Below, in pieces: positions 1-46,458 of a DNA stretch of 64,000 nucleotides (positions within the stretch are counted from its first letter, which is position 1; each line of letters begins with the position of its first letter). Source of the DNA: Pristiophorus japonicus (taxonomy: Eukaryota). The notes beneath the pieces are model-generated. The model made no database searches, was not told where the DNA came from, and was given only the letters and a program-made list of their open reading frames with translations. The DNA is taken from assembly GCF_044704955.1 (NCBI RefSeq), contig NC_092008.1, positions 2,294,001 to 2,358,000 of the forward strand, given 5' to 3'. The position numbers were made by a program, and so were the translations under genes.

Positions 1-241
1 GAAGTGCATCCGGGAGGGCGCTGAGCACCTCGAGTCTCGTCGCCGAGAGCGTGCAGAAACCAAGCGCAGGCAACGGAAGGAGCGTGCGGCAAACCAGTCC
101 CACCCTCCCCTTCCCTCAACCACTGTCTGTCCCACCTGTGACAGGGTCTGTGGCTCCCGTATTGGACTGTTCAGCCACCTAAGGACTCGTGTTAGGAGTG
201 GAAGCAAGTCTTCCTCGATCCCGAGGGACTGCCGATGATGA
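1..241 (+). mobile_element. RTE-clade LINE 3' end
   Basis: C-terminal CPTCDR..GLFSH zinc finger and (gat)n tail, as at 26510-27186. Confidence 0.8.
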
Positions 242-242
242 C

Positions 243-600
243 GGTGGGTATATTACTGGGCCAGGAATCCTGAGCCCTGGACTAACGATCCAGGGACACC
301 AGTTCAGGGCGGCTGGGGAGTTTGAACTCAATTGAACAGCTCTGGCGGTAACGGAACTTGCCGTTAAAACCCATCGGGTTCAGTGATGTGTCCTTCAGGG
401 AAGGAAATCTACCGCCCTTACCCGGTCTGGCCGCTATGTGAGTTCAGGCCCACAGCAATGTGTGCGTGACTTGTAACTGCCCTCTGACCTGGCCCAGCGA
501 GCCCCTCAGTTGTATAAGGGTCAGCGCCACCTTCTCGCGGGCGATTAGCGGACGGGCAATAAATGCTGGCCTTGCCAGTGACGCCCACAGCCCCGGGAAC
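243..600 (+). mobile_element. HE1/V-SINE-like elasmobranch SINE
   Basis: Core tccttcagggaaggaaatct...tacccggtctggcc and tail gggcaataaatgctggccttgccag. Confidence 0.65.
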
Positions 601-788
601 CAACAGGAAAAGAACATTCCCCCTCGACATACTGAAAGCCCCATTTTTACACGCACCAGAAAGACAGGTAGTGAGTGGAAACACATTTGTGCTCTCCCCT
701 AAAGTCAGCAAGAAAGGCGCCATCGCATCAGACCCCCAATTAAACCCGCGACATTAACGATCGTTGGTAACGGGCGCAAGGTGCTTAC

Positions 789-902
789 GGTTGATGGCGC
801 AGTGATACACGATCGTGGTCACCACAGCAGCGCTCAGTCCCAGTATCCCCAGCACAGCTCCGATGGTGATCAAAGTTTCATTCTCAGCATTCCTGTTCCG
901 AT
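789..902 (-). CDS. WB: WB connecting peptide/transmembrane exon
   Basis: ctctcttcag| acceptor, 114 nt, C|gtaagc donor; DRNRNAENETLITIGAVLGILGLSAAVVTTIVYHCAIN. Confidence 0.87.
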
Positions 903-3900: not shown

Positions 3901-6900
3901 GAACAGTGCAGAGGGAGCTTTACTCTATCTAACCCCCTGTACCTGCCCTGGGAGTGTTTGATGGGACAATGTAGTGGGAGCTTTACTCTGTTTCTAAATC
4001 CCTGTACCTGCCCTGGAAGTGCTTGATGGGACAGTGTAGAGGGATCTTTACTCTGTATCTAACCCCGTGCTGTACCTGCCCTGGGAGTGTTTGATGGGAC
4101 AGTGTAGAGGGAGCTTTACTCTGCATCTAACCCCCTGTACCTGCCCTGGGAGTGCTTGATGGAACAGTGCAGAGGGAGCTTTACTCTATCTAACCCCCTG
4201 TACCTGCCCTGGGAGTGTTTGATGGGACAATGTAGTGGGAGCTTTACTCTGTTTCTAAATCCCTGTACCTGCCCTGGAAGTGCTTGATGGGACAGTGTAG
4301 AGGGATCTTTACTCTGTATCTAACCCCGTGCTGTACCTGCCCTGGGAGTGCTTGATGGGACAGTGTAGAGGGAGCTTTACTCTGTATCTAACCCCCTGTA
4401 CCTGCCCTGGGAGTGTTTGATGGGACAGTGTAGAGGGAGCTTTACTCTGTATCTAACCCCCTGTACCTGCCCTGGGAGTGTTTGATGGGACAGTGTAGAG
4501 GGAGCTTTACTCTGTATCTAACCCCCTGTATCTGCCCTGGGAGTGTTTGATGGGACAGTGCAGAGGGAGCTTTACTCTGTATCTTACCCCCTGTACCTGC
4601 CCTGGGAGTGTTTGATGGGACAGTGTAGAGGGAGCTTTACTCTGTATCTAACCCCGTGTACCTGCCCTGGGAGTGTTTGATGGGACAGTGTAGAGGGAGC
4701 TTTACTCTGTATCTAACCCCCTGTACCTGCCCTGGGAGTGTTTGATGGGACAGTGTAGAGGGAGCTTTACTCTGTATCTAATCCCGTGCTGTACCTGCCC
4801 TGGAAGTATTTGATGGGACAGTGTAGAGGAAGATTTAATCTGTATCTAACCCCGTGCTGTACCTGCCCTGGGAGTGTTTGATGGGACAGTGTAGAGGGAG
4901 CTTTACTCTGTATCTAACCCGCTGTACCTGCCCTGGGAGTGTTTGATAGGACAGTGTAGAGGGAGCTTTACTCTGTATCTAACCCCGTGCTGTACCTGCC
5001 CTGGGAGTGTTTGATGGGACAGTGTAGAGGGAGCTTTACTCTGTATCTAACCCCCTGTACCTGCCCTGGGAGTGTTTGATGGGACAGTGTAGAGGGAGCT
5101 TTACTCTGTATCTAACCCCCCTGTACCTGCCCTGGGAGTGTTTGATGGGGACAGTGTAGAGGGAGCTTTACTCTTTATCTAACCCCCTGTACCTGCCCTG
5201 GGAATGTTTGATGGGACAGTGGAGAGGGAGATTTACTCTGTATCTAACCTCGTGCTGTACCTGCCCTGGGAACGTTTCATGGGAGAGTGTAAGGGGAGCT
5301 TTTCTCTGTAACTAACCCCGTTCTGTACCTGCACTGTGAGTGTTTGATGGGACAGTGTAGAGGGAGCTTTACTCTGCATCTAACCCCCTGTACCTGCCCT
5401 GGGAGTGCTTGATGGGACAGTGTAGAGGGATCTTTACTCTGTATCTAACCCCGTGCTGTACTTGCCCTGGGAGTGTTTGATGGGACAATGTAGTGGGAGC
5501 TTTACTCTGTTTCTAAATCCCTGTACCTGCCCTGGAAGTGCTTGATGGGACAGTGTAGAGGGATCTTTACTCTGTATCTAACCCCGTGCTGTACCTGCCC
5601 TGGGAGTGCTTGATGGGACAGTGTAGAGGGAGCTTTACTCTGTATCTAACCCCCTGTACCTGCCCTGGGAGTGTTTGATGGGACAGTGTAGAGGGAGCTT
5701 TACTCTGTATCTAACCCCCTGTACCTGCCCTGGGAGTGTTTGATGGGACAGTGTAGAGGGAGCTTTACTCTGCATCTAACCCCCTGTATCTGCCCTGGGA
5801 GTGTTTGATGGGACAGTGCAGAGGGAGCTTTACTCTGTATCTTACCCCCTGTACCTGCCCTGGGAGTGTTTGATGGGACAGTGTAGAGGGAGCTTTACTC
5901 TGTATCTAACCCCGTGTACCTGCCCTGGGAGTGTTTGATGGGACAGTGTAGAGGGAGATTTACTCTGTATCTAACCCCCTGTACCTGCCCTGGGAGTGTT
6001 TGATGGGACAGTGTAGAGGGAGCTTTACTCTGTATCTAACCCCCCTGTACCTGCCCTGGGAGTGTTTGATGGGGACAGTGTCGAGGGAGCTTTACTCTGT
6101 ATCTAACCTCGTGCTGTACCTGCCCTGTGAGTGTTTGATGGGTACAGTGTAGAGGGAGCTTTACTCTGTATCTAATCCCGTGCTGTACCTGCCCTGGAAG
6201 TATTTGATGGGACAGTGTAGAGGAAGATTTAATCTGTATCTAACCCCGTGCTGTACCTGCCCTGGGAGTGTTTGATGGGACAGTGTAGAGGGAGCTTTAC
6301 TCTGTATCTAACCCGCTGTACCTGCCCTGGGAGTGTTTGATAGGACAGTGTAGAGGGAGCTTTACTCTGTATCTAACCGCGTGCTGAACCTGCCCTGGGA
6401 GTGTTTGATGGGACAGTGTAGAGGGAGCTTTACTCTGTATCTAACCCCCTGTACCTGCCCTGGGAGTGTTTGATGGGACAGTGTAGAGGGAGCTTTACTC
6501 TGTATCTAACCCCCTGTACCTGCTCTGGGAGTGTTTGATGGGACAGTGTAGAGGGAGCTTTACTCTGTATCTAATCCCGTGCTGTACCTGCCCGGACGTA
6601 TTTGATGGGACAGTGTAGAGGAAGATTTAATCTGTATCTAACTCCGTGCTGTACCTGCCCTGGGAGTGTTTGATGGGACAGTGTAGAGGAAGATTTAATC
6701 TGTATCTAACCCCGTGCTGTACCTGCCCTGGGAGTGTTTGATGGGACAGTGTAGAGGGAGCTTTACTCTGAATCTAACCCGCTGTACCTGCCCTGGGAGT
6801 GTTTGATGGGACAGTGTAGAGGGAGCTTTACTCTGAATCTAACCCGCTGTACCTGCCCTGGGAGTGTTTGATGGGACAGTGTAGAGGGAGCTTTACTCTG

Positions 6901-9900
6901 TATCTAACCCCCTGTACCTGCCCTGGGAGTGTTTGATGGGACAGTGTAGAGGGAGCTTTACTCTGTATCTAACCCCCTGTACCTGCCCTGGGAGTGTTTG
7001 ATGGGACAGTGTAGAGGGAGCTTTACTCTGTATCTAACCCCCTGTACCTGCCCTGGGAGTGTTTGATGGGACAGTGTAGAGGGAGCTTTACTCTGTATCT
7101 AACCCCCTGTACCTGCCCTGGGAGTGTTTGATGGGACAGTGTAGAGGGAGCTTTACTCTGTATCTAACCACCTGTACCTGCCCTGGGAGTGTTTGATGGG
7201 ACAGTGTAGAGGGAGCTTTACTCTGTATCTAACCCCGTGCTGTACCTGCCCTGGGAGTGTTTGATAGGACAGTGTAGAGGGAGCTTTACTCTGTATCTAA
7301 CCCCCTTGTACCTGCTCTGGGAGTGTTTGATGGGACAGTGTAGAGGGAGCTTTACTCTGTATCTAACCTCGTGCTGTACCTGCCCTGTGAGTGTTTGATG
7401 GGTACAGTGTAGAGGGAGCTTTACTCTGTATCTAATCCCGTGCTGTACCTGCCCTGGAAGTATTTGATGGGACAGTGTAGAGGAAGATTTAATCTGTATC
7501 TAACCCCGTGCTGTACCTGCCCTGGGAGTGTTTGATGGGACAGTGTAGAGGGAGCTTTACTCTGTATCTAACCCGCTGTACCTGCCCTGGGAGTGTTTGA
7601 TAGGACAGTGTAGAGGGAGCTTTACTCTGTATCTAACCGCGTGCTGAACCTGCCCTGGGAGTGTTTGATGGGACAGTGTAGAGGGAGCTTTACTCTGTAT
7701 CTAACCCCCTGTACCTGCCCTGGGAGTGTTTGATGGGACAGTGTAGAGGGAGCTTTACTCTGTATCTAACCCCCTGTACCTGCTCTGGGAGTGTTTGATG
7801 GGACAGTGTAGAGGGAGCTTTACTCTGTATCTAATCCCGTGCTGTACCTGCCCGGACGTATTTGATGGGACAGTGTAGAGGAAGATTTAATCTGTATCTA
7901 ACTCCGTGCTGTACCTGCCCTGGGAGTGTTTGATGGGACAGTGTAGAGGAAGATTTAATCTGTATCTAACCCCGTGCTGTACCTGCCCTGGGAGTGTTTG
8001 ATGGGACAGTGTAGAGGGAGCTTTACTCTGAATCTAACCCGCTGTACCTGCCCTGGGAGTGTTTGATGGGACAGTGTAGAGGGAGCTTTACTCTGAATCT
8101 AACCCGCTGTACCTGCCCTGGGAGTGTTTGATGGGACAGTGTAGAGGGAGCTTTACTCTGTATCTAACCCCCTGTACCTGCCCTGGGAGTGTTTGATGGG
8201 ACAGTGTAGAGGGAGCTTTACTCTGTATCTAACCCCCTGTACCTGCCCTGGGAGTGTTTGATGGGACAGTGTAGAGGGAGCTTTACTCTGTATCTAACCC
8301 CCTGTACCTGCCCTGGGAGTGTTTGATGGGACAGTGTAGAGGGAGCTTTACTCTGTATCTAACCCCCTGTACCTGCCCTGGGAGTGTTTGATGGGACAGT
8401 GTAGAGGGAGCTTTACTCTGTATCTAACCACCTGTACCTGCCCTGGGAGTGTTTGATGGGACAGTGTAGAGGGAGCTTTACTCTGTATCTAACCCCGTGC
8501 TGTACCTGCCCTGGGAGTGTTTGATAGGACAGTGTAGAGGGAGCTTTACTCTGTATCTAACCCCCTTGTACCTGCTCTGGGAGTGTTTGATGGGACAGTG
8601 TAGAGGGAGCTTTACTCGGTATCTAACCCCGTGCTATATCTGCCCTGGGAGTGTTTGATGGGACAGTGTAGAGGGAGCTTTACTCTGTATCTAACCCCCT
8701 GTACCTGCCCTGGGAGTGTTTGATGGGACAGTGTAGAGGGAGCTTTACTCTGTATCTAACCCCCTGTACCTGCCCTGGGAGTGTTTGATGGGACAGTGTA
8801 GAGGGAGCTTTACTCTGTATCTAACCCCCTGTACCTGCCCTGGGAGTGTTTGATGGGACAGTGTAGAGGGAGCTTTACTCTGTATCTAACCCCCATGTAC
8901 CTGCCCTGGGAGTGTTTGATGGGACAGTGTAGAGGGAGCTTTACTCTGTATCTAACCCCATGCTGTACCTGCCCTGGGAATGGCCGACTCCTGCTCCTAT
9001 TTCTGATGATCTTATTTGCTCTACATTATACAGCGGCCGTTTTGTTCGAGCACCTTACCCATGGCTTTCACAGTGATGTTGAGCAATAAAGCTGTGTGTT
9101 TAATTTTATCGCATAGACTGTCAATCTGTTGTGGGACCGAGTTGACAAAACCTTCATTGGAGTTGCGCCCATCGACCACGGCTTGTGCAAAAGATTGCTT
9201 TGCAACAAATCTTTTAGTGGCGGTGTCGTAGTGCACGATCGTTTCTCCATCATACGCATCATCCCAACCGATTGAGGAATTCCGACCACATCGCCTGCAG
9301 TCACAGTGGATGTGAAACACATGCGGGTCTAGAAAGAACGAACAATGGATCATCACGGTGCAGGAGATCGGCAAATACTTGCACACTGTCAGCCCTGACA
9401 CGGCGGGTCGTACTTCTGCCTCGGAGTCAGCAGGTCTTCGTTTCAAGTCTCACTCCAGGGACTCGAGCACAAAAATCCAGGCTGACACTCGCAGCGCAGT
9501 ACTGAGGGAGCGCCGCACTGTCGGAGGGGCAGTACTGAGGGAGTGCCCCACTGTCGGAGGGGCGGTACTGAGGGAGCCCCGCACTGTCGGAGGGGCGGTA
9601 CTGAGGGAGTGCCCCACTGTCGGAGGGGCGGTACTGAGGGAGCCCCGCACTGTCGGAGGGGCAGTACTGAGGGAGCGCCGCACTGTCGGAGGGGCAGTAC
9701 TGAGGGAGTGCCCCACTGTCGGAGGGGCGGTACTGAGGGAGCCCCGCACTGTCGGAGGGGCGGTACTGAGGGTGCGCCGCACTGTCGGAGGGGAGGTACT
9801 GAGGGAGTGCCGCACTGTCGGAGGGGCAGTACTGAGGGAGCCCCGCACTGTCGGAGGGGCGGTACTGAGGGAGTGCCGCACTGTCGGAGGGGCGGTACTG

Positions 9901-11942
9901 AGGGAGCCCCGCACTGTCGGAGGGGCGGTACTGAGAGAGTGCCGCACTGTCGGAGGGGCGGTACTGAGAGAGTGCCGCACTGTCGGAGGGGCGGTACTGA
10001 GAGAGTGCCGCACTGTCGGAGGGGCGGTACTGAGAGAGTGCCGCACTGTCGGAGGGGCAGTACTGAGGGAGTGCCGCACTGTCGGAGGGGCAGTACTGAG
10101 GGAGCCCCGCACTGTCGGAGGGGCGGTACTGAGAGAGTGCCGCACTGTCGGAGGGGCGGTACTGAGAGAGTGCCGCACTGTCGGAGGGGCGGTACTGAGG
10201 GAGCGCCGCACTGTCGGAGGGGCGGTACTGAGGGAATGCCGCACTGTCGGAGGGGCAGTACTGAGGGAGCCCCGCACTGTCGGAGGGGCAGTACTGAGGG
10301 AGCGCTGCACTGTCGGAGGGGCAGTACTGAGGGAGTGCCGCACTGTCGGAGGGGGGTTACTGAGGTTGTTGAGCGAAACCCTTCAGAAATATCGATGAGG
10401 AGTGTTATATATTCCGTACAACTCACAAACTCACACAAAGTCTTCAGGTGGCAGAGCACTCTGGAACTCTCGTCAGGTGACGTGTTCCCGGTTTATTTGT
10501 GTACGGCGCTATCTCTATCACAAGGAGTCGGACAGAACTGACGCTGACCCCGTGACCCCCAAAGGGGCAATTGGATTCTGGAGCAAATCATTCCTCTCGA
10601 GTGTGTCTGCTTTCCAATCCCCCCTCGACCCTCCCCAACCCCCGGCCCTCCCGAGACATCCCGAGGGCTGCTGCTGGCATAGGGACAGGAGGAGGCCGTT
10701 CAGCCCCTCGAGCCTGTTACATTAGGGACAGGAGGAGTCCGTTCAGCCCCTCGAGTCTGTTACATTAGGGACAGGAGGAGGCCGTTCAGCCCCTCGAGCC
10801 TGTTACATTAGGGACAGGAGGAGGCCGTTCAGCCCCTCGAGCCTGTTACATTAGGGACAGGAGGAGGCTGTTCAGCCCCTCGAGCCTGTTACATTAGGGA
10901 CAGGAGGAGGCCGTTCAGCCCCTCGAGCCTGTTCCGCCAGTCGATGAGATCAGGACTGATCTAACTGGTGCTCGGTCTCGCTCCTCCTGGTTGTCACTGC
11001 CGTCAGACAGGGCGGTAATTAATCTCACCCAAATTGCAAAGTGCCGCAGTACAGCGGGACCTGGGGGGTACTTGTACATGAAACACAAAAGGTTAGTATG
11101 CAGGTACAGCAAGTGATCAGGAAGGTCAATGGGATCTTGGCCTTTATTGCAAAGGAGATGGAGTATAAAAGCAGGGAAGTCTTGCTCCAGTTATACAGGG
11201 TATTGGTGAGACCACACCTGGAGTACTGCGTGCAGTTTTGGTCTCCGTATTTACGAAAGGATATACTTGCTTTGGAGTCAGTTCAGAGAAGGTTCACTCG
11301 GTTGATTCCGGGGATGAGGGGGTTGACTTATGAGGAAAGGTTGAGCAGGTTGGGCCTCTACTCACTGGAACTCAGAAGAATGAGAGGTGATCTTATGGAA
11401 ACGTATCAGATTATGAGGGGGGCTCGACAAGGTGGATGCAGAGAGGATGTTTCCACTGATGGGGGAGACTAGAACTAGGGGGCATGGTCTTAGAATAAGG
11501 GGCCGCCCATTTAAAACTGAGATGAGGAGGAATTTCTTCTCTCTGAGGGTTGTAAATCTGTGGAATTCGCTGCCTCAGAGAGCTGTGGAAGCCGGGACAT
11601 TGAATATATTTACGACAGAGATAGACAGTTTCTTAACCGATAAGGGGGCGGGCAGGGAAGTGGAGCTGAGTCCATGATCGGATCAGCCACGGTCGTATTA
11701 AATGGCGGAGCAGGCTCGAGGGGCCGAATGGCCGACTCCTGCTCCGGTTTCTTATGTTCGCTCATGGCTTTCTTTGGAAGCAGAGCTTGCGATACGATGG
11801 GGCTGCCCCTCGCTGGATCGGCAGTGGGACAGCAGGTTGATGCGAGCGAGGGTTAATGAAGCCACTTACCGATCCAGCCCTCCACCGCGACCACGACAGT
11901 CACCATCGCCACCAGGGCGGTCCATCGGGTGCAAGCCGGCAT
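789..11942 (-). CDS. WB: MHC W-category beta chain gene (WB-like), exons 11942-11870, 9328-9059, 2227-1955, 902-789; cytoplasmic exon not located
   Basis: All exons are phase 1 with GT-AG introns and an open frame. beta1 has class I alpha2-like H..(H)....C and AYDG; beta2 has class I alpha3-like VVPQRDGTFQ rather than class II beta NGDWTFQ; TM GxxxGxxG. Confidence 0.88.
996..1715 (-). mobile_element. CR1 LINE fragment (RT) in the WB intron
   Basis: QGSVLGP...FADD and YLDFQKSFDKVPH. Confidence 0.9.
1955..2227 (-). CDS. WB: WB beta2 C1-set Ig domain exon (class I alpha3-like)
   Basis: gttttcacag| acceptor, 273 nt, G|gtaagt donor; LVCLATNFFPREIDLSW...VPQRDGTFQAWS...SCQVEH. Confidence 0.92.
2263..8980. 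repeat. ~6.7 kb 65/68-bp satellite filling the WB beta1-beta2 intron
   Basis: Unit gggagtgtttgatgggacagtgtagagggagctttactctgtatctaaccccctgtacctgccct; 1260-bp higher-order duplication. Confidence 0.97.
9059..9328 (-). CDS. WB: WB beta1 domain exon
   Basis: ttctttctag| acceptor, 270 nt, G|gtaagg donor; DPHVFHIHCDCRRCGRNSSIGWDDAYDGETIVHYD...SLCDKIK with the canonical Cys pair. Confidence 0.88.
9380..10365 (+). mobile_element. tRNA-derived SINE head followed by a 33-bp internal tandem array
   Basis: Degenerate tRNA-like head, then (gtactgagggagcgccgcactgtcggaggggcg)n. Confidence 0.8.
11030..11760 (+). mobile_element. CR1 LINE 3' fragment
   Basis: [15 protein letters not shown]...RTRGH...LWNSLP + 3' UTR. 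Confidence 0.9.
11870..11942 (-). CDS. WB: WB leader exon MPACTRWTALVAMVTVVVAVEGWI
   Basis: ATG, hydrophobic core, VEG cleavage-like site, consensus phase-1 donor G|gtaagt. Confidence 0.8.
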
Positions 11943-12319
11943 CTCGAAAGGCGGCCGAAGGATTGGCGAGCCGTCTGGGCTGTCGGTGTGTCTCGTCCAA
12001 GCGAGGAATGGTTCTGAATCGCTCAGGTACGGACGCTCGGCTTACCAACCCGACTCCTCCCACACACAGCCGTCGGCTGGGAAACTCCCCCAGCACTCAC
12101 ATCGCCCAACCTCGCCAACACCAGACAAGGCTTCTTTCATCAATTCATTCACTTCCTCTTCCTCGTGTCTTTATCACGACACCGCCCATTAAACCAACTC
12201 AACCCTCGAGCTTCGAAACTCTGCTGCTAATTGCACCTTGACAGATAATTCATTCTCTACCTCTTGCCCAAAACATCCATTAAAGGGATGGTGTCATCAT
12301 TAAAGGGGAGTGTTCACGG

Positions 12320-14045
12320 CTGAGGTCTCATATTTGACCCTGAAATGAGCTTCCGGCCTCATCTCCGTGGCAGAGCAAAACCGGCCTCTTTCCCCCTCCG
12401 TAACATCGCCCGTCGCCTCCCCTCGCTCAGCTCATCCGCTGCTGAAGCCCTCATCCGTGCCTCTGCCCCCCCCCTCTCCAGACTTGACTATTCCAACACA
12501 CTCCTGGCCAGCCTCCCACATTCTACCCGACGCAAACTCGAGGTGATCCAAAACTCGGCTGCCCCCCCCCCGCCGTGTCCTAACTCACACCCAGTCCCAC
12601 TCACCCATCACCCCCTGTGCTCACTGACCCCGTGTCCTAACTCGCACCGAGTCCCACTCACCCATCACCCCCTGTGCTCACTGACCCCGTGTCCTAACTC
12701 GCACCGAGTCCCACTCACCCATCACCCCCTGTGCTCACTGACCCCGTGTCCTAACTCACACCCAGACCCACTCACCCATCACCCCCTGTGCTCACTGACC
12801 CCGTGTCCTAACTCACACCCAGTCCCACTCACCCATCACCCCCTGTACTCACTGACCCCGTGTCCCAACTCACACCCAGTCCCGCTCACCCATCACCCCC
12901 TGTGCTCACTGACCCCGTGTCCTAACTCACACCCAGTCCCGCTCACCCATCACCCCCTGTGCTCACTGACCCCGTGTCCTAACTCACACCCAGTCCCACT
13001 CACCCATCACCCCCTGTGCTCACTGCCCCGTGTCCTAACTCACACCGAGTCCCACTCACCCATCACCCCCTGTGCTCACTGCCCCGTGTCCTAACTCGCA
13101 CCGAGTCCCGCTCACCCATCACCCCCTGTGCTCACTGCCCCGTGTCCTAACTCGCACCGAGTCCCGCTCACCCATCACCCACTGTGCTCACTGACCGACA
13201 TTGGCTCCCGGTCCGGCAACGCCTCAATTTCAAAATTCACATCCTTATTTACAAATCTCTCCTCGCCCCCTCCCTATCTCTGTAACCCCCTCCAGCCCCT
13301 ATACCCCTCCCTATCTCTGTAACCTCCTCAAGCCCCTACACTCCTCCCGATCTCTGTAACCTCCCCTAGCCACTACATCCCTCCCTATCTCTGTAACCCC
13401 CTCCAGCCCCTACACCCCTCCCTATATCTGTAACCCCCTCCAGCCCCTACACCCCTCCCTAGCTCTGTAACCTCCTCCAGCCCCTACACCCCTCCCTATC
13501 TCTGTAACCTCCTCCAGCCCCACAACACCTCCCTATCTCTGTAACCCCCTCCAGCCCCTACACCCCTCCCTATCTCTGTAACCTCCTCCAGCTCCTACAC
13601 CCATCCCTATCTCTATAACCCCCTCCAGCCCCTACACCCCTCCCTATCTCTGTAACCCCCTCCAGCCCCGACACCCCTCCCTATCTCTGTAACCCCCTCC
13701 AGCCCCTACACCCCTCCCTATCTCTGTAACCTCCTCCAGCCCCTACACCCCTCCCTATCTCTGTAACCCCCTCCAGCCCCACAACCCCCCCGAGATCTCT
13801 GCGCTCCACTAATTCTGCCCCCCTGACCATCCCTGATTATAATCGCTCCACCAGCGGTGGCCGTGCCTTCTGTTGCCTGGGCCCCAAGCTCTGGAACTCC
13901 CTCCCTAAACCTCTCCGCCTCGCTCTCCTCCTTCAAGACGCTACCTTTTTATGTGGCTCGGTGTCAAATATGGTCTGATAATCGCTCCTGTGAAGCACCT
14001 TGGGACATTTCACTACGTTAAAGGCGCTATATAAATTCAGGTTGT
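12320..14045 (+). mobile_element. L2-clade LINE 3' fragment with internal 57-bp and ~38-bp tandem expansions
   Basis: RLDYSNTLLASLP...LEVIQNSAA motif, arrays 12573-13195 and 13270-13790, tail ggcgctatataaat. Confidence 0.78.
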
Positions 14046-14086
14046 TGCTGCTGTTGATGAGGTGCGGTATGTGTCGAATCTGGGCC

Positions 14087-15030
14087 GCGGTACTGAGGGA
14101 GTGCCGCACTGTCGGAGGGGCAGTACTGAGGGAGCCCCGCACTGTCGGAGGGGCAGTACTGAGGGAGCCCCGCACTGTGGGAGGGGCGGTACTGAGGGAG
14201 CGCCGCACTGCGCTGTCGGAGGGGCGGTACTGAGGGAGCACCGCACTGTCGGAGGGGCGGTACTGAGAGAGCCCCGCACTGTCGGAGGGGCGGTACTGAG
14301 GGAGCACCGCTCTGTCGGAGGGGCGGTACTGAGGGAGCGCCGCACTGTCGGAGGGGCGGTACTGAGGGAGCCCCGCACTGTCGGAGGGGCGGTACTGAGG
14401 GAGCGCCGCACTGTCGGAGGGGCGGTACTGAGGGAGCACCGCACTGTCGGAGGGGCGGTACTGAGGGAGCCCCGCACTGTCGGAGGGGCGGTACTGAGGG
14501 AGTGCCGCACTGTCGGAGGGGCGGTACTGAGGGAGCGCCGCACTGTCGGAGGGACGGTACTGAGGGAGCGCCGCACTGTCGGAGGGGCGGTACTGAGGGA
14601 GCGCCGCACTGTCGGAGGGGCGGTACTGAGGGAGCCCCGCACTGTCGGAGGGACGGTACTGAGGGAGCACCGCACTGTCGGAGGGGCAGTACTGAGGGAA
14701 CGCTGCACTGTCGGAGGGGCCATATTTCGGGATGAGACGTTAAACCGAGGCCCCGTCTGCCCTCTCGGGTGGATGTAAAATCTCCCGGGGCAACTATTGG
14801 AAGAAGAGCAGGGGGAGCTCTCCCCCGTGTCCTGGGGCCAATATTTATCCCACGAGCAACAGACGATCCGGGTCACTATCACGTCTCTGTGTGTGTGGGA
14901 GCTTGCTGTGCGCAAATTGGCGTTTCCCACATTGCAACAGTGAGCGCGCTCCTTCATTAGTTGTGAGGCGCTTTGAGAGGTCCGGTGGTCGTGATAGGCG
15001 CTATATAAATACAAGTCTTGCTTTCTTCTT
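14087..15030 (+). mobile_element. 33-bp array + Deu-domain SINE 3' half (SacSINE1-like)
   Basis: Array runs into tcggatgagacgttaaaccgaggccccgtctgcc and ends ggcgctatataaatacaagtctt. Confidence 0.8.
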
Positions 15031-15139
15031 CCTGGCCTATGGATTGCTCACCCTGTAACCTGAACCGTTGTGACACTACGCCCCTCCGGGAGCTGTAACA
15101 AACTCCCCAGTGTGGTTACACTCAGCTCATTCCTCATCA

Positions 15140-15347
15140 ACTGGATTCCTGCACTGATCCGGTGCCAAGTGTCGGATGAGTTAGGATCTCTGTGCCAAAA
15201 AAACCTGCAGCCAATGAGACGCGCGGAGGGCGAGACTGAATTCCTTCACTGGGAAGGGAGGCTTGAAAGCTCATCGGCCGAGGTGCTGGGGCAGAGCGGT
15301 GATTGGGACGGGCTCTGCGTGCACTCTCTGAACGTTCCTGCAGCAGC
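15140..15347. promoter_or_regulatory. Putative bidirectional promoter with two oppositely oriented CCAAT/Y-box elements
   Basis: CCAAT at 15211-15215 (CTCATTGG on -) and TGATTGG at 15300-15306 on +, in a short unique island between repeats just upstream of the WA ATG. Confidence 0.5.
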
Positions 15348-15432
15348 ATGACCTCGTTGGCCAACGTGGGAGCGCGTGTCTTCCTACTCATCGCGCTGTC
15401 TCTGACCACGGCAACACGGGCAACAGATCTCG
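15348..15432 (+). CDS. WA: WA exon 1, signal peptide [28 protein letters not shown]
   Basis: ATG in gcagcATG context, hydrophobic core, phase-1 donor G|gtgagt. Confidence 0.85.
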
Positions 15433-18400
15433 GTGAGTGCGCTGTGTGTGTGTGTGTGTGTGTGAATGCCGACGTTTGTCTGCTCCTCTCTCCAAGGGTT
15501 TAAGTCACGTGGAGAGATTGCAAAAAAACAGGGACGTGCCCCCCCCGGGAATTTAGAAGTTTAACGGGCGAACTGTTCGACGTTTTCAGGATATCAGGGG
15601 GAACAGAGGATGGGTAGAGAGAGACAATCTCCGCAGGTTGGGGGGTCTCGGACTAGGGGGCAGCTTCTCCTGCTCCTAATGTAACAGGCTCGAGGGGCTG
15701 AACGGCCTCCTCCTGTTCCTAATATAACAGGCTCGAGGGGCTGAATGGCCTCCTCCTGCTCCTAATGTAACAGGCTCGAAGGGCTGAACGGCCTCCTCCT
15801 GTCCCTAATGTAAGGCTCGAGGGGCTGAACGGCCTCCTCCTGTTCCTAATGTAACAGGCTCGAGGGGCTGAACGGCCTCCTCCTGTCCCTAATGTAACAG
15901 GCTCAAGGGGCTGAACAGCCTCCTCCTGTCCCTAATGTAACAGGCTCAAGGGGCTGAACAGCCTCCTCCTGTCCCTAATGTAACAGGCTCAAGGGGCTGA
16001 ACGGCCTCCTCCTGTCCCTAATGTAACAGGCTCGAGGGGCTGAACGGCCTCCTCCTGTTCCTAATGTAACAGGCTCGAGGGGCTGAATGGCCTCCTCCTG
16101 CTCCTAATGTAACAGGCTCGAGGGGCTGAACGGCCTCCTCCTGTCCCTAATGTAACAGGCTCGAGGGGCTGAACGGCCTCCTCCTGTCCCTAATGTAACA
16201 GGCTCGAGGGGCTGAACGGCCTCCTCCTGTTCCTAATGTAACAGGCTCGAGGGGCTGAATGGCCTCCTCCTGCTCCTAATGTAACAGGCTCGAAGGGCTG
16301 AACGGCCTCCTCCTGTCCCTAATGTAACAGGCTCGAGGGGCTGAACGGCCTCCTCCTGTTCCTAATGTAACAGGCTCGAGGGGCTGAACAGCCTCCTCCT
16401 GTTCCTAATGTAACAGGCTCGAGGGGCTGAACGGCCTCCTCCTGTCCCTAATGTAACAGGCTCGAAGGGCTGAACGGCCTCCTCCTGTCCCTAATGTAAC
16501 AGGCTCGAAGGGCTGAACGGCCTCCTCCTGTCCCTAATGTAACAGACTCGAGGGGCTGAACGGCCTCCTCCTGTCCCTAATGTAACAGGCTCGAAGGGCT
16601 GAACGGCCTCCTCCTGTCCCTAATGTAACAGGCTCGAAGGGCTGAACGGCCTCCTCCTGTCCCTAATGTAACAGGCTCGAAGGGCTGAACGGCCTCCTCC
16701 TGTCCCTAATGTAACAGGCTCGAGGGGCTGAACGGCCTCCTCCTGTTCCTAATGTAACAGGCTCGAGGGGCTGAACGGCCTCCTGTCCCTAATGTAACAG
16801 GCTCGAGGGGCTGAACGGCCTCCTCCTGTTCCTAATGTAACAGACTCGAGGGGCTGAACGGCCTCCTCCTGTTCCTAATGTAACAGACTCGAGGGGCTGA
16901 ACGGCCTCCTCCTGTTCCTAATGTAACAGACTCGAGGGGCTGAACAGCCTCCTCCTGTTCCTAATGTAACAGGCTCGAGGGGCTGAACGGCCTCCTCCTG
17001 CTCCTAATGTAACAGGCTCGAGGGGCTGAACGGCCTCCTCCTGTCCCTAATGTAACAGGCTTGAGGGGCTGAACAGCCTCCTCCTGTCCCTGTGTCCTCG
17101 CTGTGCATCGTGGGTCACAGGATTGGTCTTGTGACCTTGTCCTACCCCTGAGCCGACCCTGCCCCCTGGCCGTGGGGTTTGGGGGTGAGAAGGCGCGGCG
17201 GGGGGAGGCGTGCCATTTGCTTTCGCCGCGGGGCACCGGCCCCAAGCCATCGCTGGGCGCTTGCGGAGGAGGGGAGGGAGGGAGTCTCCTCTTGGCGAGG
17301 TTCTCCAGCGGAGTTTGGAGTTTGAAAAGGGCAGCGGGCGGGCCGGGTTGAGTGGAAATGGACGGTCTGGGGCGGGGGTGCTGGGGCGAGAGGGGGGAGA
17401 AATTCGGTATTGCACCGTAACCGCCGTGGGGCCAGACTTCCTGCGAGCGAGACACGAAAGTCCCACCCCGCGACAACGGAATCGAGCTTACGTAATGTCG
17501 CGCACTCCGCTTCCCCTGGGGGGCGCTAGCTGCAGGAATAGCGCTGGCCGTGTCACTGGCCCCGCCCCTTCCGTTAACGTCCGACACTCAATCATCAGCC
17601 GGTGTCGCCGGCGGCGCTAACCTGCGGCACTTGCTCACCGTTAACCTGCTCGCCCATGCCCAGTTTGGGTTCCGCTAGGACCACTCGGCCCCTGACCTCA
17701 GTGCAGGCCTTGGTCCAAACACGGGACACAACGCGCTGAGTTCCAGAGGTGCGGTGAGAGTGACTGCCCGCGACATCAAGGCAGCATGTGACCGAGTGTG
17801 GCATCAAGGAGCCCCGGTAAAACTGACGGTCAATGGGAATTAAGGGGGAAATCTCTCCACTGGCTGGAGTCATACCCGGCACGGAGGAAGATGGTTGTGG
17901 TGGTTGGAGGCCAATCCTCTCTGTCCCAGGACATCGCTGCAGGAGTCCCTCAGGGCAGTGTCCTAGGCCCAACCGTCTTCAGCCAATCCATCAATGACCT
18001 TCCCTCCATCATACGGACAGACGTGGGGATGTTCGCTGATGATTGCACAGTGTTCACTTCCATTCGCAACTCCTCAGATAATGGAGCAGTCCGTGCCCCA
18101 CATGCAGCAAGACCTGGACAACATTCAGGCTCGGGCTGATAAGCGGCAAGTAACATTCGCGCCCCACAAGTGCCAGGCAATAACCATCGCCAACAAGCGA
18201 GAGTCTAACCACCGCCCCTTGACATTCACCAGCATTCCCATCGCCCAATCCCCCCACCATCCACATCCTGGGGGTCACCATTGACCAGAAACTTCACTGG
18301 ACCAGACACATAAATACTGTGGCCACAAGAGCGGGTCAGAGGCTGGGTATTCTGCGACCAGTGTCTCACCTCCTGACTCCCCAAAGCCTCTCCACCATCT

Positions 18401-21400
18401 ACAACCCACAAGTCAGGAGTGTGATGGAACACTCCCCACTTGCCTGGATGAGTTGCAGCTCCAACAACACTCGAGACGCTCGACACCATCCGGGACAAAG
18501 CAGCCCCGCTCGATGGGCCACGCGACCCACCGCCTCCAACACTCACTCCCTCCACCACCTCCAACACTCACTCCCTCCACCACCGGCGCACCGTGGCTGC
18601 AGTGTGCACCGTCCACAAGATGCACCGCGGCAACTGGCCAAGGCTTCTTCGGCAACACCTCCCGAACCCGCGACCTCTACCCGCCTAGAAGGTCAAGGGC
18701 AGCAGGTCCATGGGAACACCACCCCCTCCACGTTCCCCTCCCAGTCACACACACACCATCCCTCGACTTGGAAATATATCGGCCGTTCCTCCATCGTCGC
18801 TGGGTCCCAATCCTGGACCTCCCTCCCTAACAGCACTGTGGGAGCACCTTCACCACACGGGACTGCAGCGGTTCAAGAAGGCGGCTCACCCCCACCTTCT
18901 CAAGGGACGGGCAATAAAACAGTCATTGTTCTTTGAAGTAATTCCTTGTCACATGCACACGACCCAAGTGCCAGGCAATGACCATCCCCAACAAGCGAGA
19001 TTCTAACTACCTCCCCGTTGACGTTCACCGGAGAGACACGAGAGTGTGTCCCTCAAGTACAAATGTCTAACTTTCTCTGCTATCTTCCCCTTCCTAGACT
19101 GTGAATCAATGGCGGAACAAATCTATTACACTTACACGCAGGGTGCGGAGAGAATCCTCGACATCTTCAGCGTCAATGCCACCCCCTTCCTGATCTACGA
19201 TTTCGGAGCGCGAACCTTTGTCATCAACGAGAAAGAGACGGACGGCAAGGAGGAGCTGGGTCCGGAAGAAGTGAGCTTTTATAGTGACAGGGCTCAAAGT
19301 TTGCAAGCTCGCCTACGCGGCATCACCAAGGAAATGATAACGCTGACAAACGGCACAAGCATCCCCAGCAGTAAGTCGCGGGTGTTTGTTCTGTTCACTG
19401 TCATTCTTAGAACTCGGAACTCATGTTGGGAGAGGACAACATTTTAGGCTTAACCCAGTGTCCGTTTTATTACGCAACAAAAAAAACCGACGGAAAAAAC
19501 TACAGGACTAGACTTCTGAGAGAAATTGACTGAAGACATACAATCGCCATTCCTGGCTGTAGCTATTGTAAGAACATAAGAATTAGGAACAGGAGTAGGC
19601 CATCTAGCCCCTCGGGCCTGCTCCGCCATTCAACAAGATCATGGCTGATCTGGCCGTGGACTCAGCTCCACTTACCCGCCCGCTCCCCGTAACCCTTAAT
19701 TCCCTTATTGGTTAAAAATCTATCTATCTGTGACTTGAATACATTCAATGAGCTAGCCTCAACTGCTTCCTTGGGCAGAGAATTCCACAGATTCACAACC
19801 CTCTGGGAGAAGAAATTCCTTCTCAACTCGGTTTTAAATTGGCTCCCCCGTATTTTGAGGCTGTGCCCCCTAGTTCTAGTCTCCCCGACCAGTGGAAACA
19901 ACCTCTCTGCCTCTATCCTGTCTATCCCTTTCATTATTTTAAATGTTTCTATAAGATCGCCCCTCATCCTTCTGAACTCCAACGAGTAAAGACCCAGTCT
20001 ACTCAATCTATCATCATAAGGTAACCCCCTCATCTCCGGAATCAGCCGAGTGAATCGTCTCTGTACCCCCTCCAAAGCCAGTATATCCTTCCTTAAGTAA
20101 GGTGACCAAAACTGCACGCAGTACTCCAGGTGCGGCCTCACCAATACCCTGTACAGTTGCAGCAGGACCTCCCTGCTTTTGTACTCCATCCCTCTCGCAA
20201 TGAAGGCCAACATCCCATTCACCTTCCCGATTACCTGCTGCACCTGCAAACTAACTTTTTGGGATTCACGCACAAGGACCCCCAGGTCCCTCTGCACCTC
20301 AGCATGTTGTAATTTCTCCCCATTCAAATAGTATTCCCTTTTACTGTTTTTTATCCCCCAAGGTGGATGACCTCACACTTTCCGACATTGTATTCCATCT
20401 GCCAAACCTTAGCCCACTCGCTTAGCCATTGTAGGTTCGTGGTCGTTGGTTCCGTGACCGGTTGGTGGTCCTTCTGCCCGTTCTCCGCAGCTGTTCTCGT
20501 TCCTGTCTTCCCGTCTCTCCATTTGTCGTTCTCCACCTTCTTGTGTTCCTGTGTTCCTATATTTATATCCACAGTATGAATAAGTTCCCCGCTGGGCCGG
20601 GGTCCGATTAATGCGCCTGGATCGAGGTGGTGATTTGTTTGACCTCGCTGTAGTGGTGAGTTTTGATTGGCTGCTAATTTGCACACGGCGTCGGCAGGGC
20701 AAGAGATAACTCCTTATCCTTAATGCCCCGTTATCCAAAAATGTGCATTTCGTAGGGTCCTTTGTAGTCCTGGTTCCTTGCAGACTTGTAGTCTCTGGGG
20801 TGAACTGTTTTACCCCCTGCGGCCAATCAATCCCGGGGCACCGCGGATAAATAGTATCAGTCTCTTTGTCTGTATCCATAACCCAAATTTAGTCCTTGCC
20901 GACTGAGGTTGCTTTTAATAGGTGATGAGTCACCACTTGCCTCAGGCTGGTGCCGTTTCCTCTCCCAGGTAGTCCAAAAAGGTAGTTAAAACAGTTTGTC
21001 CGTGGCCTCTTCCTGTGCCTTGTTCCAAGAAAAATAGGTGTACCCTTACACTCCCTCCTTTTAATGTCTCTTGTACGCATTCTGAGTACTGACATCACTG
21101 CGGTTTGGTGGGTCGGGCCGGGAGTGGAGATCTGGGTTGAAGTCCGGTCCTGCTAGGCGATGTTACGGAGGTGGAAATAGGCGGTCTTAGTTACCCTGCG
21201 GAATTATGGTTGAAAGCTCGTTGCAGGTTCAAACCCATACCACACAGCACTGCCCCCCCCCAGTCCACAAGATCCACGGCGTGGCCCTGGACAACGTGAA
21301 CCACTTTCCGTACCTTGGGAGCCTCTTATCAACAAGAGGTCCAACATTGCCTCCAGTGCAGCCTTCGGCCGCCTGAGGAAAAGTGTGTTCGAAGACCAGG

Positions 21401-24400
21401 CCCTCAAAACTGCCGCCCAGCTCATGGTCTACAGGGCTGTAGTGATACCCGCCCTCCTGTATGGCTCAGAGACATGGACCATGTACAGTAGACACCTCAA
21501 GTCGCTGGAGAAGTACCACCGACGCTGTCTCCGCAAGATCCTGCAAATCCCCCGGGAGGACAGACGCACCAACGTTAGCGTCCTCGACCAGGCCCAACAT
21601 CCCTAGCATCGAAGCACTGACCACACTCGACCAGCTCCGCTGGGCAGGGCCACATTGTCCGCATGTCCCCCCGACACGAGACTCCCAAAGCCAAGCACTC
21701 TACTCGGAACTCCTTCACGGGCAAACGAGCCAAAGGTGGGCAGAGGAAACGTTACAGGGGACCACCCTCAAAGCCCTCCCTGATAAAGTGCAACATCCCC
21801 ACCGGCACCTTGGAGTCCCTGGGCCCAAAGACCAGTCCCGCCCTAAGTGGAGGGAGTGCATCCGGGAGGGCGCTGAGCTCTTCGAGTCTCGTCGCCGAGA
21901 GTGGGCAAATGCATGGCAGATGCAGTATAATGTGGATAAATGTGAGATTATCCACTTTGGGGGCAAAAACAGGAAGGCAGAATATTATCTGAATGGTGAC
22001 AGATTAAGAAAAGGGGAGGTGCAACGAGACCTGGGTGTCATGGTACATCAGTCATTGAAAGTTGGCATGCAGGTACAGCAGGCGGTGAAGAAGGCAAATG
22101 GTATGTTGGCCTTCATAGCGAGGGGATTTGAGTATAGGAGCAGGGAGGTCTTACTGCAGTTGTACAGGGCCTTGGTGAGGCCTCACCTGGAATATTGTGT
22201 TCAGTTTTGGTCTCCTAATCTGAGGAAGGACATTCTTGCTATTGAGGGAGTGCAGCGAAGGTTCACCAGACTGATTCCCGGGATGACAGGACTGACATAT
22301 GAGGAGAGACTGGATCGACTGGGCTTATATTCACTGGGGTTTAGAAGGATGAGAGGGGATCTCATAGAAACATATAAAATTCTGACGGGACTGGACAGGT
22401 TAGATGCAGGAAGAATGTTCCCGATGTTGGGGAAGTCCAGAACCAGGGGTCACAGTCTAAGGATAAGGGGTAAGCCATTTAGGACCGAGATGAGGAGAAA
22501 CTTCTTCACTCAGAGAGTGGTGAACCTGTGAAATTCTCTACCACAGAGAGTTGTTGAGGCCAGTTCGTTAGATATATTCAAAAGGGAGTTAGATGTGGCC
22601 CTTAGGGCTAAAGGGATCAAGGGGTATGGAGAGAAAGCAGGAATGGGATACTGAGGGAATGATCAGCCATGATCTTATTGGATGGTGGTGCAGGCTCAAA
22701 GGGCTGAATGGCCTACTCCTGCACCTATTTTCTTTGTTTCTGTTTCCTCGATTTTGAGCGACTACCTATGATGATATGAGAGGGCACACGGGGCCTCAGT
22801 TTAACGTCTCATCCGAAAGCCGGCATCTCCGACAGTGCGGTGCTCCCTCAGTACCGCCCCTCCGACAGTGCAGCGCTCCCTCAGTACCGTCCCTCCGACA
22901 GTGCGGCACTCCCTCAGTACCGCCCCTCCGACAGTGCGGCGCTCCCTCAGTACCTCCCGTCCGACAGCGCAGTACGGCACTCCCTCAGTACTGTCCCTCC
23001 GACACTGTGGCACTCCCTCAGTACTGCCCCTCCGACACTGTGGCACTCCCTCAGTACTGCCCCTCCGACACTGTGGCACTCCCTCAGTACCGCCCCTCCG
23101 ACACTGTGGCACTCCCTCAGTGCCGCCCCTCCGACACTGTGGCACTCCCTCAGTGCCGCCCCTCCGACACTGTGGCACTCCCTCAGTACTGCCCCTCCGA
23201 CAGCGCAGTGCAAATGCACTTCTCTCCCCGCGCTCCCCCAGTTCCTGTTCTGGTTCCTGGGGCCCCCCCTCCGACAACAAGGGAACCTTTGGAGACCGGT
23301 AACGCTATCATTTCCGTTGCAGAGAAGCCAGAAGCCGAAATCTACACGGAGAAAGACTACGCACCGGGCCGGCCAAACATTCTGTATTGTTACGCCGAGA
23401 AATTCTACCCATACAAGATTGAAATGAAGTTCCTGGTCAATGGAAGTGAATTTGCCGGGCAGGTCCATTCACTCCCGGTCCTGGTGGAGGATGATTGGAC
23501 CTTCAATGTCTTCGCCTACATCCGGATTGAGCCACAGGACGGGGACACTTACAGTTGCCAGATTGATCACCGCAGCCTCGACAAACCGCTGACAGTTGTG
23601 CTGGGTAGGTCAAGTAGGGATACACGGGCAATGGTGGATGGGTAAAGGTCAGCTGGTCCATCCAGGATGTCCCACACAATTGTGTATCACTCAGTACTGC
23701 CCCTCCGACAGTGCGGCGCTCCCTCAGTACTGCCCCTCCGACAGTGCGGCGCTCCCTCAGTACTGCCCCTCTGACAGTGCAGCGCTCCCTCAGTACCGCC
23801 CCTCCGACAGTGCGGCACTCCCTCAGTACCGCCCCTCCGACAGTGCGGCGCTCCCTCAGTATCACCCCTCCGACAGTGCGGCGCTCCCTCAGTACTGCCC
23901 CTCCGACAGTGCGGCGCTCCCTCAGTACTGCCCCTCCGACAGTGCGGCGCTCCCTCAGTACTGCCCCTCCGACAGTGCGGCGCTCCCTCAGTACTGCCCC
24001 TCCGACAGTGCGGCGCTCCCTCAGTACTGCCCCTCCGACAGTGCGGCGCTCCCTCAGTACCGCCCCTCCGACAGTGCGGCGCTCCCTCAGTACCGCCCCT
24101 CCGACAGTGCGGCGCTCCCTCAGTACCGCCCCTCCGACAGTGCGGTGCTCTCTCAGTACCGCCCCTCCGACAGTGCGGCGCTCCCTCAGTACCGCCCCTC
24201 CGACAGTGCAGCGCTCCCTCAGTACCGCCCCTCCGACAGTGCGGCACTCCCTCAGTACCGCCCCTCCGACAGTGCGGCGCTCCCTCAGTACCGCCCCTCC
24301 GACAGTGCGGCACTCCCTCAGTACTGCCCCTCCGACAGTGCGGTGCTCCCTCAGTACCGCCCCTCCGACAGTGCGGCGCTCCCTCAGTACTGCCCCTCCG

Positions 24401-27311: not shown

Positions 27312-27607
27312 GCTCGAGGGAGAGGATGGAGACGTGACGGAGAAAGGTCAGTGTGATTAACCCCATTGCAAGTTCCACCCGGTGTCACCGTCACGGTGAC
27401 CAGACACGGCATTGGTTCACGATCCAGTGTCCGGGAACTTTAACCCCGTCCCAAACATTCTCCAACGGTCCGTCTGACAGCAACCGAGCACACATTGAAA
27501 CATCGCGGATTAACCCCGTCATCCGCGACAGAAATCCAGTGTCGAATGGACACAGGCCCACAGGAAAACACAGGCCCAGAACTCAACACCAATTGGCACT
27601 GTGTTTA

Positions 27608-27995
27608 ATGGGAGTGTTTGACGGGACAGTGTAGAGGGAGCTTTACTCTGTATCTAACCCCCTGTACCTGCCCTGGGAGTGTTTGATGGGACAGTGTAGA
27701 GGGAGCTTTACTCTGTATCTAACCCCCTGTACCTGTCCTGGGAGTGTTTGATGGGGACAGTGTAGAGGGAGTTTTACTCTGTATCTAACCCCCTGTACCT
27801 GTCCTGGGAGTGTTTGATGGGACAGTGTAGAGGGAGCTTTACTCTGTATCTAACCCCGTGCTGTACCTGTCCTGGGAGTGTTTGATGGGACAGTGTAGAG
27901 GGAGCTTTACTCTGTATCTAACCCCGTGCTGTACCTGCCCTGGGAGTGTTTGATGGGACAGTGTAGAGGGAGCTTTACTCTGTATCTAACCCCGG
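27608..27995. repeat. Same 65-bp satellite, ~6 units, in the probable WA 3' UTR
   Basis: Same unit sequence as 2263-8980. Confidence 0.93.
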
Positions 27996-39641: not shown

Positions 39642-39979
39642 CTCTCAAAAAACGAGATCCGAAAGAACTAAATTTAACTTTTAAAGAGAAAAGAGGAATT
39701 TTTAAGGACCTTCCTAGCTGAAAGGGGGATGAGCCGCCGAGATCCCCTGGAGGGTGAGGCATAATTTTAAGGTAGCTACCGCAAAGAAGCTAAAGTAACA
39801 AAAAGGCAAAAGGAGACCTCGAGCTGAGCGGAAAAGAGAACGTGTGGCTATACGCCACTTGTCCCTCTAAGAAGTTGGACGCGGACCGCTCCGGGGTCGC
39901 TTTGTAAATTATTGTATATTTTGTAGGATTGTCCTAACTCTCATTTCAGAAAAGATCACGAGACGTTGCACCCGGAAGA

Positions 39980-46220: not shown

Positions 46221-46458
46221 GAAAACAGCCATCTTCTCGCTGAAGAACTGTACCTGCTCTTATTTTGTGTTCACTCATTGTGTATTTTGGACTTAAAAGT
46301 ATCTATAGTTACCCAAAAGTCCAGGGACGAATGTCAGAACTCATTTGTATGCCAGTTTTGGCCTTTATTATTTGGGTTACGGTTACTATCGTGCTTGCGT
46401 GTTGTTATTGTAACGAATTAAGTTCAAGAGTGTTATAGAAGTAAACAGAAAAGGGAAG

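What the first reader, a model, noticed from the sequence alone, without database searches (positions are those of the whole stretch)
9059..23604. Matched departures from the class I-type interface suggest a divergent W lineage
Seen, by eye alignment with human class I/beta2m numbering: alpha2 keeps W60 and Y10 but has L54V, F56V and W95L (PLTVVLG). The facing beta1 residues keep A117/G120 but show Q96H and D122T. beta2 lacks the usual Tyr before the second Cys (HRSTSC) and the terminal Trp (VVQF). Established: F56/W60 pack against Q96/A117/D122 in class I. Inference: changes on both sides look co-evolved, giving pair-specific assembly or a remodelled groove floor. This may be a distinct or undescribed W subfamily.
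Basis: partly seen in the sequence, partly recalled or inferred. Interest (0 to 1): 0.7.

Follow-up and report, generated by a model that had tools for sequence, protein, structure and literature searches.

The report
Shark MHC pair likely disulfide-locked
This is an intact two-gene immune receptor of an already described shark MHC subgroup, so most of the odd residues are ordinary for that subgroup, but this one copy has gained a cysteine in each chain at positions predicted to face each other, which would likely bolt the two chains together covalently.

Summary
The residues are real, but they do not mark an undescribed subfamily. The locus is a head-to-head WA/WB pair of the published shark W-category DS5/Nds5L subgroup (Okamura 2021). 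Five of the seven departures (F56V, W95L, Q96H, D122T, beta2 terminal Trp) stand in that paper's DS5/Nds5L alignment rows. The other two (L54V, beta2 Tyr loss) occur in 4 of 4 copies in this genome, whose Ig exons are homogenised, so they cannot give pair specificity. None of 51 WA and 48 WB published rows has either, nor any other fetched protein or paralogue. A predicted complex (0.66, controls 0.00) pairs the two central strands at register i+j=68, which extrapolates to C30 facing C38. A natural interchain disulfide is the likeliest reading (about 0.65, untested); it would give pair-specific assembly by another route. WA is spliced in contigs of a second study. The scan's earlier notes shown to me held nothing on W genes.

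The parts
789..902 (-). WB exon 4, connecting peptide and transmembrane segment; three cytoplasmic exons lie just before the window start
   Evidence: matches Nds5L rows of Dataset S3
1955..2227 (-). WB exon 3, beta2 Ig C1 domain (P166, G170 kept; Tyr before second Cys replaced by Thr; terminal Phe)
2262..8979 (.). 65/133-bp tandem array filling WB intron 2
9059..9328 (-). WB exon 2, beta1 domain, Nds5L type; groups with skate and whale-shark beta1
   Evidence: UFBoot 98
9288..9290 (-). Codon of the private WB Cys38 (three residues after the canonical Cys35)
   Evidence: same base calls in DNA contig of run X1, possibly the source sample
11870..11942 (-). WB exon 1, signal peptide
15348..15432 (+). 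WA exon 1, signal peptide; head to head with WB, start codons 3.4 kb apart
19098..19370 (+). WA exon 2, alpha1 domain, DS5 type; spliced to exons 1 and 3 in contigs of runs X5 and X6
19100..19102 (+). Codon of the private WA Cys30 (class I position 2)
   Evidence: unchanged in X5, X6 and X1 contigs
19171..19242 (+). Likely conversion tract in alpha1, 68 of 72 bases identical to paralogue WA2
   Evidence: codon-shuffle p 0.0006, window chosen as the best one
23323..23604 (+). WA exon 3, alpha2 Ig C1 domain (Y127, F156, W178 kept; L170, V172, V174, L213)
26145..26268 (+). WA exon 4, connecting peptide and transmembrane segment with class II-type glycines
27272..27311 (+). WA exon 5, cytoplasmic tail and stop
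1..2888 (.). Block 95-97% identical to the two other C34 WB genes (beta2 and TM exons with introns)
22827..27993 (.). Two blocks 94.5% and 96.5% identical to WA2 (alpha2, TM, tail exons with introns)

Best explanation
This is an intact head-to-head WA/WB gene pair of the published shark W-category DS5/Nds5L subgroup, one of three such pairs in a cluster, and it alone carries an extra cysteine in each chain that is predicted to sit across the central strand pair and likely forms an interchain disulfide. Shown: gene structure, subgroup marks, near-identity of Ig, TM and tail exons among the copies against deep divergence of the groove exons, and privacy of the two cysteines in the sample. Predicted: a class II-like heterodimer docked through W178, V174 and Y127, with C30 opposite C38. 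Inferred: the copies exchange their membrane-proximal exons (conversion or unequal crossing-over), which spread the species-level changes (L54V, S-to-L two residues before it, beta2 Tyr loss) to all copies; with those exons alike, chain choice must rest on alpha1/beta1, and the disulfide would lock WA1 to WB1 and leave mismatched pairs with a free thiol, likely held back in the ER. The molecule likely works as a low-polymorphism, non-classical MHC-like surface receptor.
For: Subgroup: and column tallies in fetched proteins (V at F56 in 13 of 14, L/M at W95 in 14 of 14, H at Q96 in 11 of 12, T/S at D122 in 12 of 12, L/F terminal in 12 of 12). Intact: all exons open with GT/AG joints; WA exon 2 joined to exons 1 and 3 in contigs of two runs of a second study. 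Homogenisation: dS alpha2 0.07-0.17 and beta2 0.015-0.045 against alpha1 0.65-1.59 and beta1 1.56 to saturated among the C34 copies; species copies form one clade for alpha2 and beta2 (UFBoot 100) while one clade for beta1 is rejected (p-AU 0.007). Cys pair: 1 of 18 alpha1 and 1 of 16 beta1 rows have a non-canonical Cys, both from this pair; 0 of 51 WA and 0 of 48 WB rows of Dataset S1 (read by eye). Complex model: score 0.66, best of 3 controls 0.00, contacts agree at least 93% between runs, partner pLDDT at least 83 (the mark was reached by 51 of 78 solved and 2 of 108 mismatched pairs; on eukaryotes 71 of 105 and 2 of 126); best pairs 33-35, 34-34, 35-33, 37-31, 39-29 give i+j=68, and 30+38=68; both residues are in the listed interface. 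A random residue pair would be one of about 165 contacts with chance 0.5%, or on this register 0.04% (post hoc). Engineered interchain disulfides stabilise HLA-DQ (PMC11402769).
Against: No coordinates were available, so the Cys-Cys distance was not measured; the pair 30-38 is extrapolated three steps beyond the last listed pair and is not among the 25 best contacts. In the single-chain WA model the strand starts at 33 and residues 14-33 have pLDDT under 50. The complex pass may be memory of solved class II structures. One species, one pair: co-occurrence of the two cysteines across species is untested, and each can arise by one base change. In the HLA-DQ screen only 3 of 15 juxtaposed Cys pairs gave stable product. 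WB splicing and the Cys38 codon are not covered by second-study contigs. One clade for the four alpha1 exons is not rejected (p-AU 0.40). Beta2 among the C34 copies shows no purifying signal (7-9 nonsynonymous against 1-3 synonymous changes).
Confidence: 0.65

Rival explanations
1. Ordinary DS5/Nds5L pair; the two extra cysteines are tolerated drift and stay unbonded, or C30 links WA homodimers or another protein.
For: Single-base changes suffice (codons TGT; paralogues TTT and TAT at the WA site); C30 lies at the frayed start of strand 1; Nds5L beta1 already tolerates a third conserved Cys (C33, 15 of 15 rows with letters); the WA1 alpha1 branch is long (0.38 against 0.09 for WA2).
Against: Both private cysteines fall in the same gene pair and on one predicted cross-strand register; C33 and C38 are five apart on one strand (E29-38) and should not reach each other.
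Confidence: 0.25
2. The copies are under relaxed selection and the changes in the Ig domains (beta2 Tyr loss, alpha2 S-to-L and L54V) are early decay.
For: Long species branches in alpha2 and beta2; Tyr kept in 12 of 12 other species' beta2 rows and Ser in 14 of 14 alpha2 rows; beta2 dN/dS 0.78-2.7 among C34 copies on very few changes.
Against: All frames and splice sites intact; dN/dS 0.22-0.27 for alpha2, 0.21-0.54 for alpha1 and 0.21-0.35 for beta1 among C34 copies; WA spliced.
Confidence: 0.07
3. One reading: an undescribed W subfamily whose listed interface changes co-evolved to give pair-specific assembly.
For: V174, W178, H30, A49-T54 are in the predicted interface; beta1 belongs to an old sub-lineage shared with skates and whale shark that has no row among the Nds5L rows of Dataset S1.
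Against: Five of seven changes are published subgroup marks and two are shared by all copies in the genome; V172 is not in the interchain interface list.
Confidence: 0.03

Closest known systems
W-category WA DS5 / WB Nds5L subgroup of cartilaginous fish (Okamura et al. 2021, PMC8713811; main text parts 1-4 of 6, parts and rows of Datasets S1-S3 read; SI Appendix not readable)
   Same: Class II-type genes head to head; W61, Y8, F37 in alpha2; P57, G61 in beta2; V57, terminal L, H6, T37, CxC in beta1, terminal F/L; TM and tail motifs.
   Different: Extra Cys in alpha1 and beta1 (this pair only); alpha2 L55V and S53L and beta2 Tyr loss (all copies of this genome); three pairs in the cluster plus one on C4; beta1 of a skate-like sub-lineage one residue shorter in the first hairpin.
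Classical MHC class II alpha/beta heterodimers
   Same: Two chains of two domains, paired genes, TM glycines; the fold search of the WB model returns class I heavy chains and class II beta chains.
   Different: No W61 in beta2, no W37 in alpha2; non-covalent ectodomains as a rule (recalled).
Disulfide-engineered HLA-DQ7 (PMC11402769; parts 1-2 of 6 and passages read)
   Same: Paired cysteines across alpha and beta chains stabilise a class II-type heterodimer.
   Different: Man-made, at other positions (Y19C-D6C, A83C-E5C, A84C-N33C), with no natural Cys there in DQ alleles; the list of 15 tried pairs is in a figure I could not see.
Class I heavy chain / beta2-microglobulin interface (Wu et al. 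2021, PMC8236899; passages read)
   Same: W60 and Y10 anchors kept.
   Different: The F56 half of the F56+W60 knob is Val in the whole DS5 subgroup.

Membership tests
W-category MHC | [quoted passage not shown] | tested here: met
W-category MHC | W61 in alpha2 | tested here: met
   W178
W-category MHC | No Ig-core Trp at alpha2 position 37 (F/L) | tested here: met
   F156
W-category MHC | Y8 in alpha2 with P57 in beta2 | tested here: met
   Y127, P166, both in predicted interface
W-category MHC | No W61 in beta2 (mostly G) | tested here: met
   G170
W-category MHC | A32 and G35 in beta1 | tested here: met
   A49, G52
W-category MHC, main-text consensus only | L55 and F/Y57 in alpha2, D37 in beta1 (typical, not defining: the authors file DS5/Nds5L rows lacking F57 and D37 as W, and 2 of 8 DS5 rows lack L55) | tested here: not met
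   V172, V174, T54
W-category MHC | Alpha and beta chains form a surface heterodimer | not testable with these tools
   Model supports binding; shown only for salamander chains in the paper
DS5 WA subgroup | V/I57, terminal M/L, alpha1 and TM motifs of the DS5 rows | tested here: met
Nds5L WB subgroup | H6, CxC at 10-12, T/S37, helix Cys, terminal F/L, TM and tail motifs | tested here: met
Classical class II | W37 in alpha2 and W61 in beta2 | tested here: not met

The most novel reading that the evidence does not exclude
A shark has evolved a natural covalent MHC alpha/beta heterodimer: a cross-strand disulfide at the edge of the groove floor locks one W-category pair together and enforces cognate pairing among duplicated genes whose Ig and membrane exons are being homogenised.
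Probability: 0.6. Interest if true: 0.6.

Novelty: new variant of a known kind. Interest (0 to 1): 0.4.

Why it matters
No solved W-category chain came up in the structure searches and the function of W molecules is open (PMC8812513, part 1 of 2 read). A naturally cross-linked pair would be the easiest W molecule to express, purify and solve, and to elute ligands from, which makes the question of what W molecules bind directly testable. It would also show a way by which duplicated MHC pairs keep their partners apart. Without the disulfide, the locus is an ordinary member of a described subgroup.

Tried and rejected
Undescribed subfamily: rejected on the published rows. Register error: rejected. 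Pseudogene: rejected. Intrachain C33-C38 bond: unlikely, same strand. No RNA holder is on record in the run search; the spliced contigs come from runs of unrecorded kind, and contig depths were not used to rank the genes. WB exon 2 had only a 153-base internal contig in X6 and none in X5 or X7, which says nothing about expression. Promoter motif scan (motifs recalled) found only CCAAT/ATTGG and one GC box, no clear X box. Single-chain models were of modest confidence (pLDDT 55 and 66) and give no coordinates. Literature: searches listed no paper whose title or abstract start reports a natural alpha-beta ectodomain disulfide in class II or W molecules, or W genes of this species; and the passages of PMC4471590 gave no usable rule on cross-strand disulfides, so that geometry is recalled. 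The main text of PMC8713811 does not contain DS5, conversion or sawshark; its SI Appendix was too large to read and may discuss the subgroup's interface and exon homogenisation. P0005 was left out of the trees (isoform lacking half of alpha1; replaced by P0179). Published dataset sequences were compared by eye, not put in the trees. dN/dS against other species could not be run (no DNA held). Earlier scan notes: 8 of 15 shown, none on W genes; none by sequence.
Full report
What is there. The window holds two MHC-like genes head to head. WA (+) has five coding exons from 15348 to 27311; WB (-) has four in the window from 11942 to 789 and three short tail exons just before the window start; all frames are open and the joints checked are GT/AG. 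The products equal two UniRef proteins named from Pristiophorus japonicus, P0001 and P0017. Contigs of two runs from a second study carry WA exon 2 joined to exons 1 and 3, with one synonymous difference in exon 2; their exon-1 end matches paralogue WA2 at one position, so it is an allele or a merged contig. WB splicing was not shown.

The observation. The beta2 motifs lie outside the given coordinates.

It is a described subgroup. Okamura et al. 2021 (PMC8713811) list shark WA DS5 and WB Nds5L sequences. In Dataset S2, DS5 rows have V/I at the F56 column in 8 of 8 and M/L at the W95 column in 8 of 8; Nds5L beta2 ends in F/L in 4 of 4. In Dataset S1, Nds5L beta1 has H at Q96 in 3 of 4 and T/S at D122 in 4 of 4. 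Fetched proteins of other sharks and rays agree (some overlap the published set). D122 is kept in 1 of 17 shark WB rows, so it is not tied to F56V. The two remaining departures, L54V and the beta2 Tyr, are absent from other species (0 of 14 and 0 of 12), as is an S-to-L change two residues before L54 (0 of 14). Elasmobranch W genes are known to be multicopy and outside the MHC (PMC10751288, passages).

Why those changes are not pair-specific. The genome has three DS5/Nds5L pairs within 150 kb on C34 and a fourth on C4. All four WA copies have the alpha2 changes and all four WB copies lack the Tyr. Among the C34 copies alpha2 is 91-96% and beta2 90-92% identical in protein, with dS at most 0.17, and identity of 94-97% runs through kilobases of intron; alpha1 is 39-63% and beta1 37-48% identical, with dS 0.65 to saturated. 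Trees put the Ig domains together by species (this species UFBoot 100; Heptranchias alpha2 94; Chiloscyllium alpha2 100) and several groove domains together across species (window beta1 with two skates and whale shark, 98). One clade for this species' beta1 is rejected (p-AU 0.007, group named after the tree was seen); for alpha1 it is not (0.40), in keeping with a likely conversion tract from WA2 inside alpha1. I infer old groove exons riding on homogenised membrane-proximal exons, a pattern recalled from other MHC families. dN/dS among C34 copies is 0.21-0.54 for alpha1, alpha2 and beta1, but 0.78-2.7 for beta2 on 1-3 synonymous changes.

WA has Cys30, at class I position 2, where others have F, Y, V or I; WB has Cys38, three residues after the canonical Cys35. 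They are the only non-canonical ectodomain cysteines in 18 alpha1, 18 alpha2, 16 beta1 and 16 beta2 rows apart from the subgroup-wide Cys33, and both belong to this pair. By eye, 0 of 51 WA and 0 of 48 WB rows of Dataset S1 have Cys at these columns. The predicted ectodomain complex scored 0.66 against 0.00 for the best of three controls, with at least 93% of contacts shared between runs and partner pLDDT of at least 83; the mark was reached by 51 of 78 solved and 2 of 108 mismatched pairs, my alignments were not used, and the pass may reflect likeness to solved class II complexes. Its most confident contacts pair the first strands at i+j=68; 30+38=68, and both residues are in the listed interface. 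The 30-38 contact itself is extrapolated and no distance was measured. From recall of class I sheets, this is a non-hydrogen-bonded cross-strand position, the kind that allows a disulfide. Chance placement is 0.5% for any contact and 0.04% for this register, a post hoc figure. Against: the WA monomer model starts the strand at 33 with low confidence before it, and only 3 of 15 engineered pairs worked in HLA-DQ (PMC11402769).

How it likely works. The chains assemble as a class II-shaped heterodimer with the class I-like W60 and Y10 anchors and a reduced knob (Val for Phe, facing His for Gln) common to the subgroup. Because the copies share their Ig, membrane and tail parts, partner choice must come from alpha1 and beta1; in this pair a disulfide at the edge of the groove floor would fix the choice and may offset weaker Ig domains. 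Subgroup membership about 0.97; disulfide about 0.65; a role in pairing control is inference on top of that.

Verdict. The residue of interest is a predicted natural interchain disulfide in one pair of one species; the searches listed no report of such a bond, but the unread SI Appendix and papers outside the library may bear on it. New variant of a known kind; interest 0.4.

Noticed in passing
window 39900-48000 (+): Broken endogenous retrovirus with gag-, protease-, RT-, integrase- and env-like open frames (named by eye from the translations), interrupted by CR1-type insertions.
   Followed up: no
G000:C15:96159723-96161234; G000:C34:2458053-2462085: The only DS1-like WB found lies on C15, while a DS10-like WA sits in the C34 cluster with no DS1-like gene in the 304 kb examined (only 150 of 417 candidates scored).
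   Followed up: partly
G000:C4:277635180-277658808: Dispersed DS5/Nds5L pair; no beta1 exon found and beta2 departs at its end; likely a decaying duplicate.
   Followed up: partly
G000:C34:2247745 (+), 2476195 (-), 2234716 (+): DS3-like beta1 exon occurs twice in opposite orientation about 230 kb apart and a WA3-type TM exon lies alone at 2234716, suggesting an inversion or inverted duplication through the cluster.
   Followed up: no
window 9305-9303 (-): Nds5L beta1 has a third conserved Cys (C33, class I Y99 position, 15 of 15 rows with letters) with no evident partner; possibly a free thiol in the groove floor.
   Followed up: no
P0004, P0179 (Cetorhinus, Carcharodon gene models): Database models fuse a DS10 WA ectodomain to a DS5 WA chain; likely annotation read-through of tandem genes.
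   Followed up: no
window 2262-8979, 9499-10365, 15667-17091, 23690-24596: Tandem arrays cover 46% of the first 28 kb, mostly in the introns of the pair; they may promote exchange between copies.
   Followed up: no
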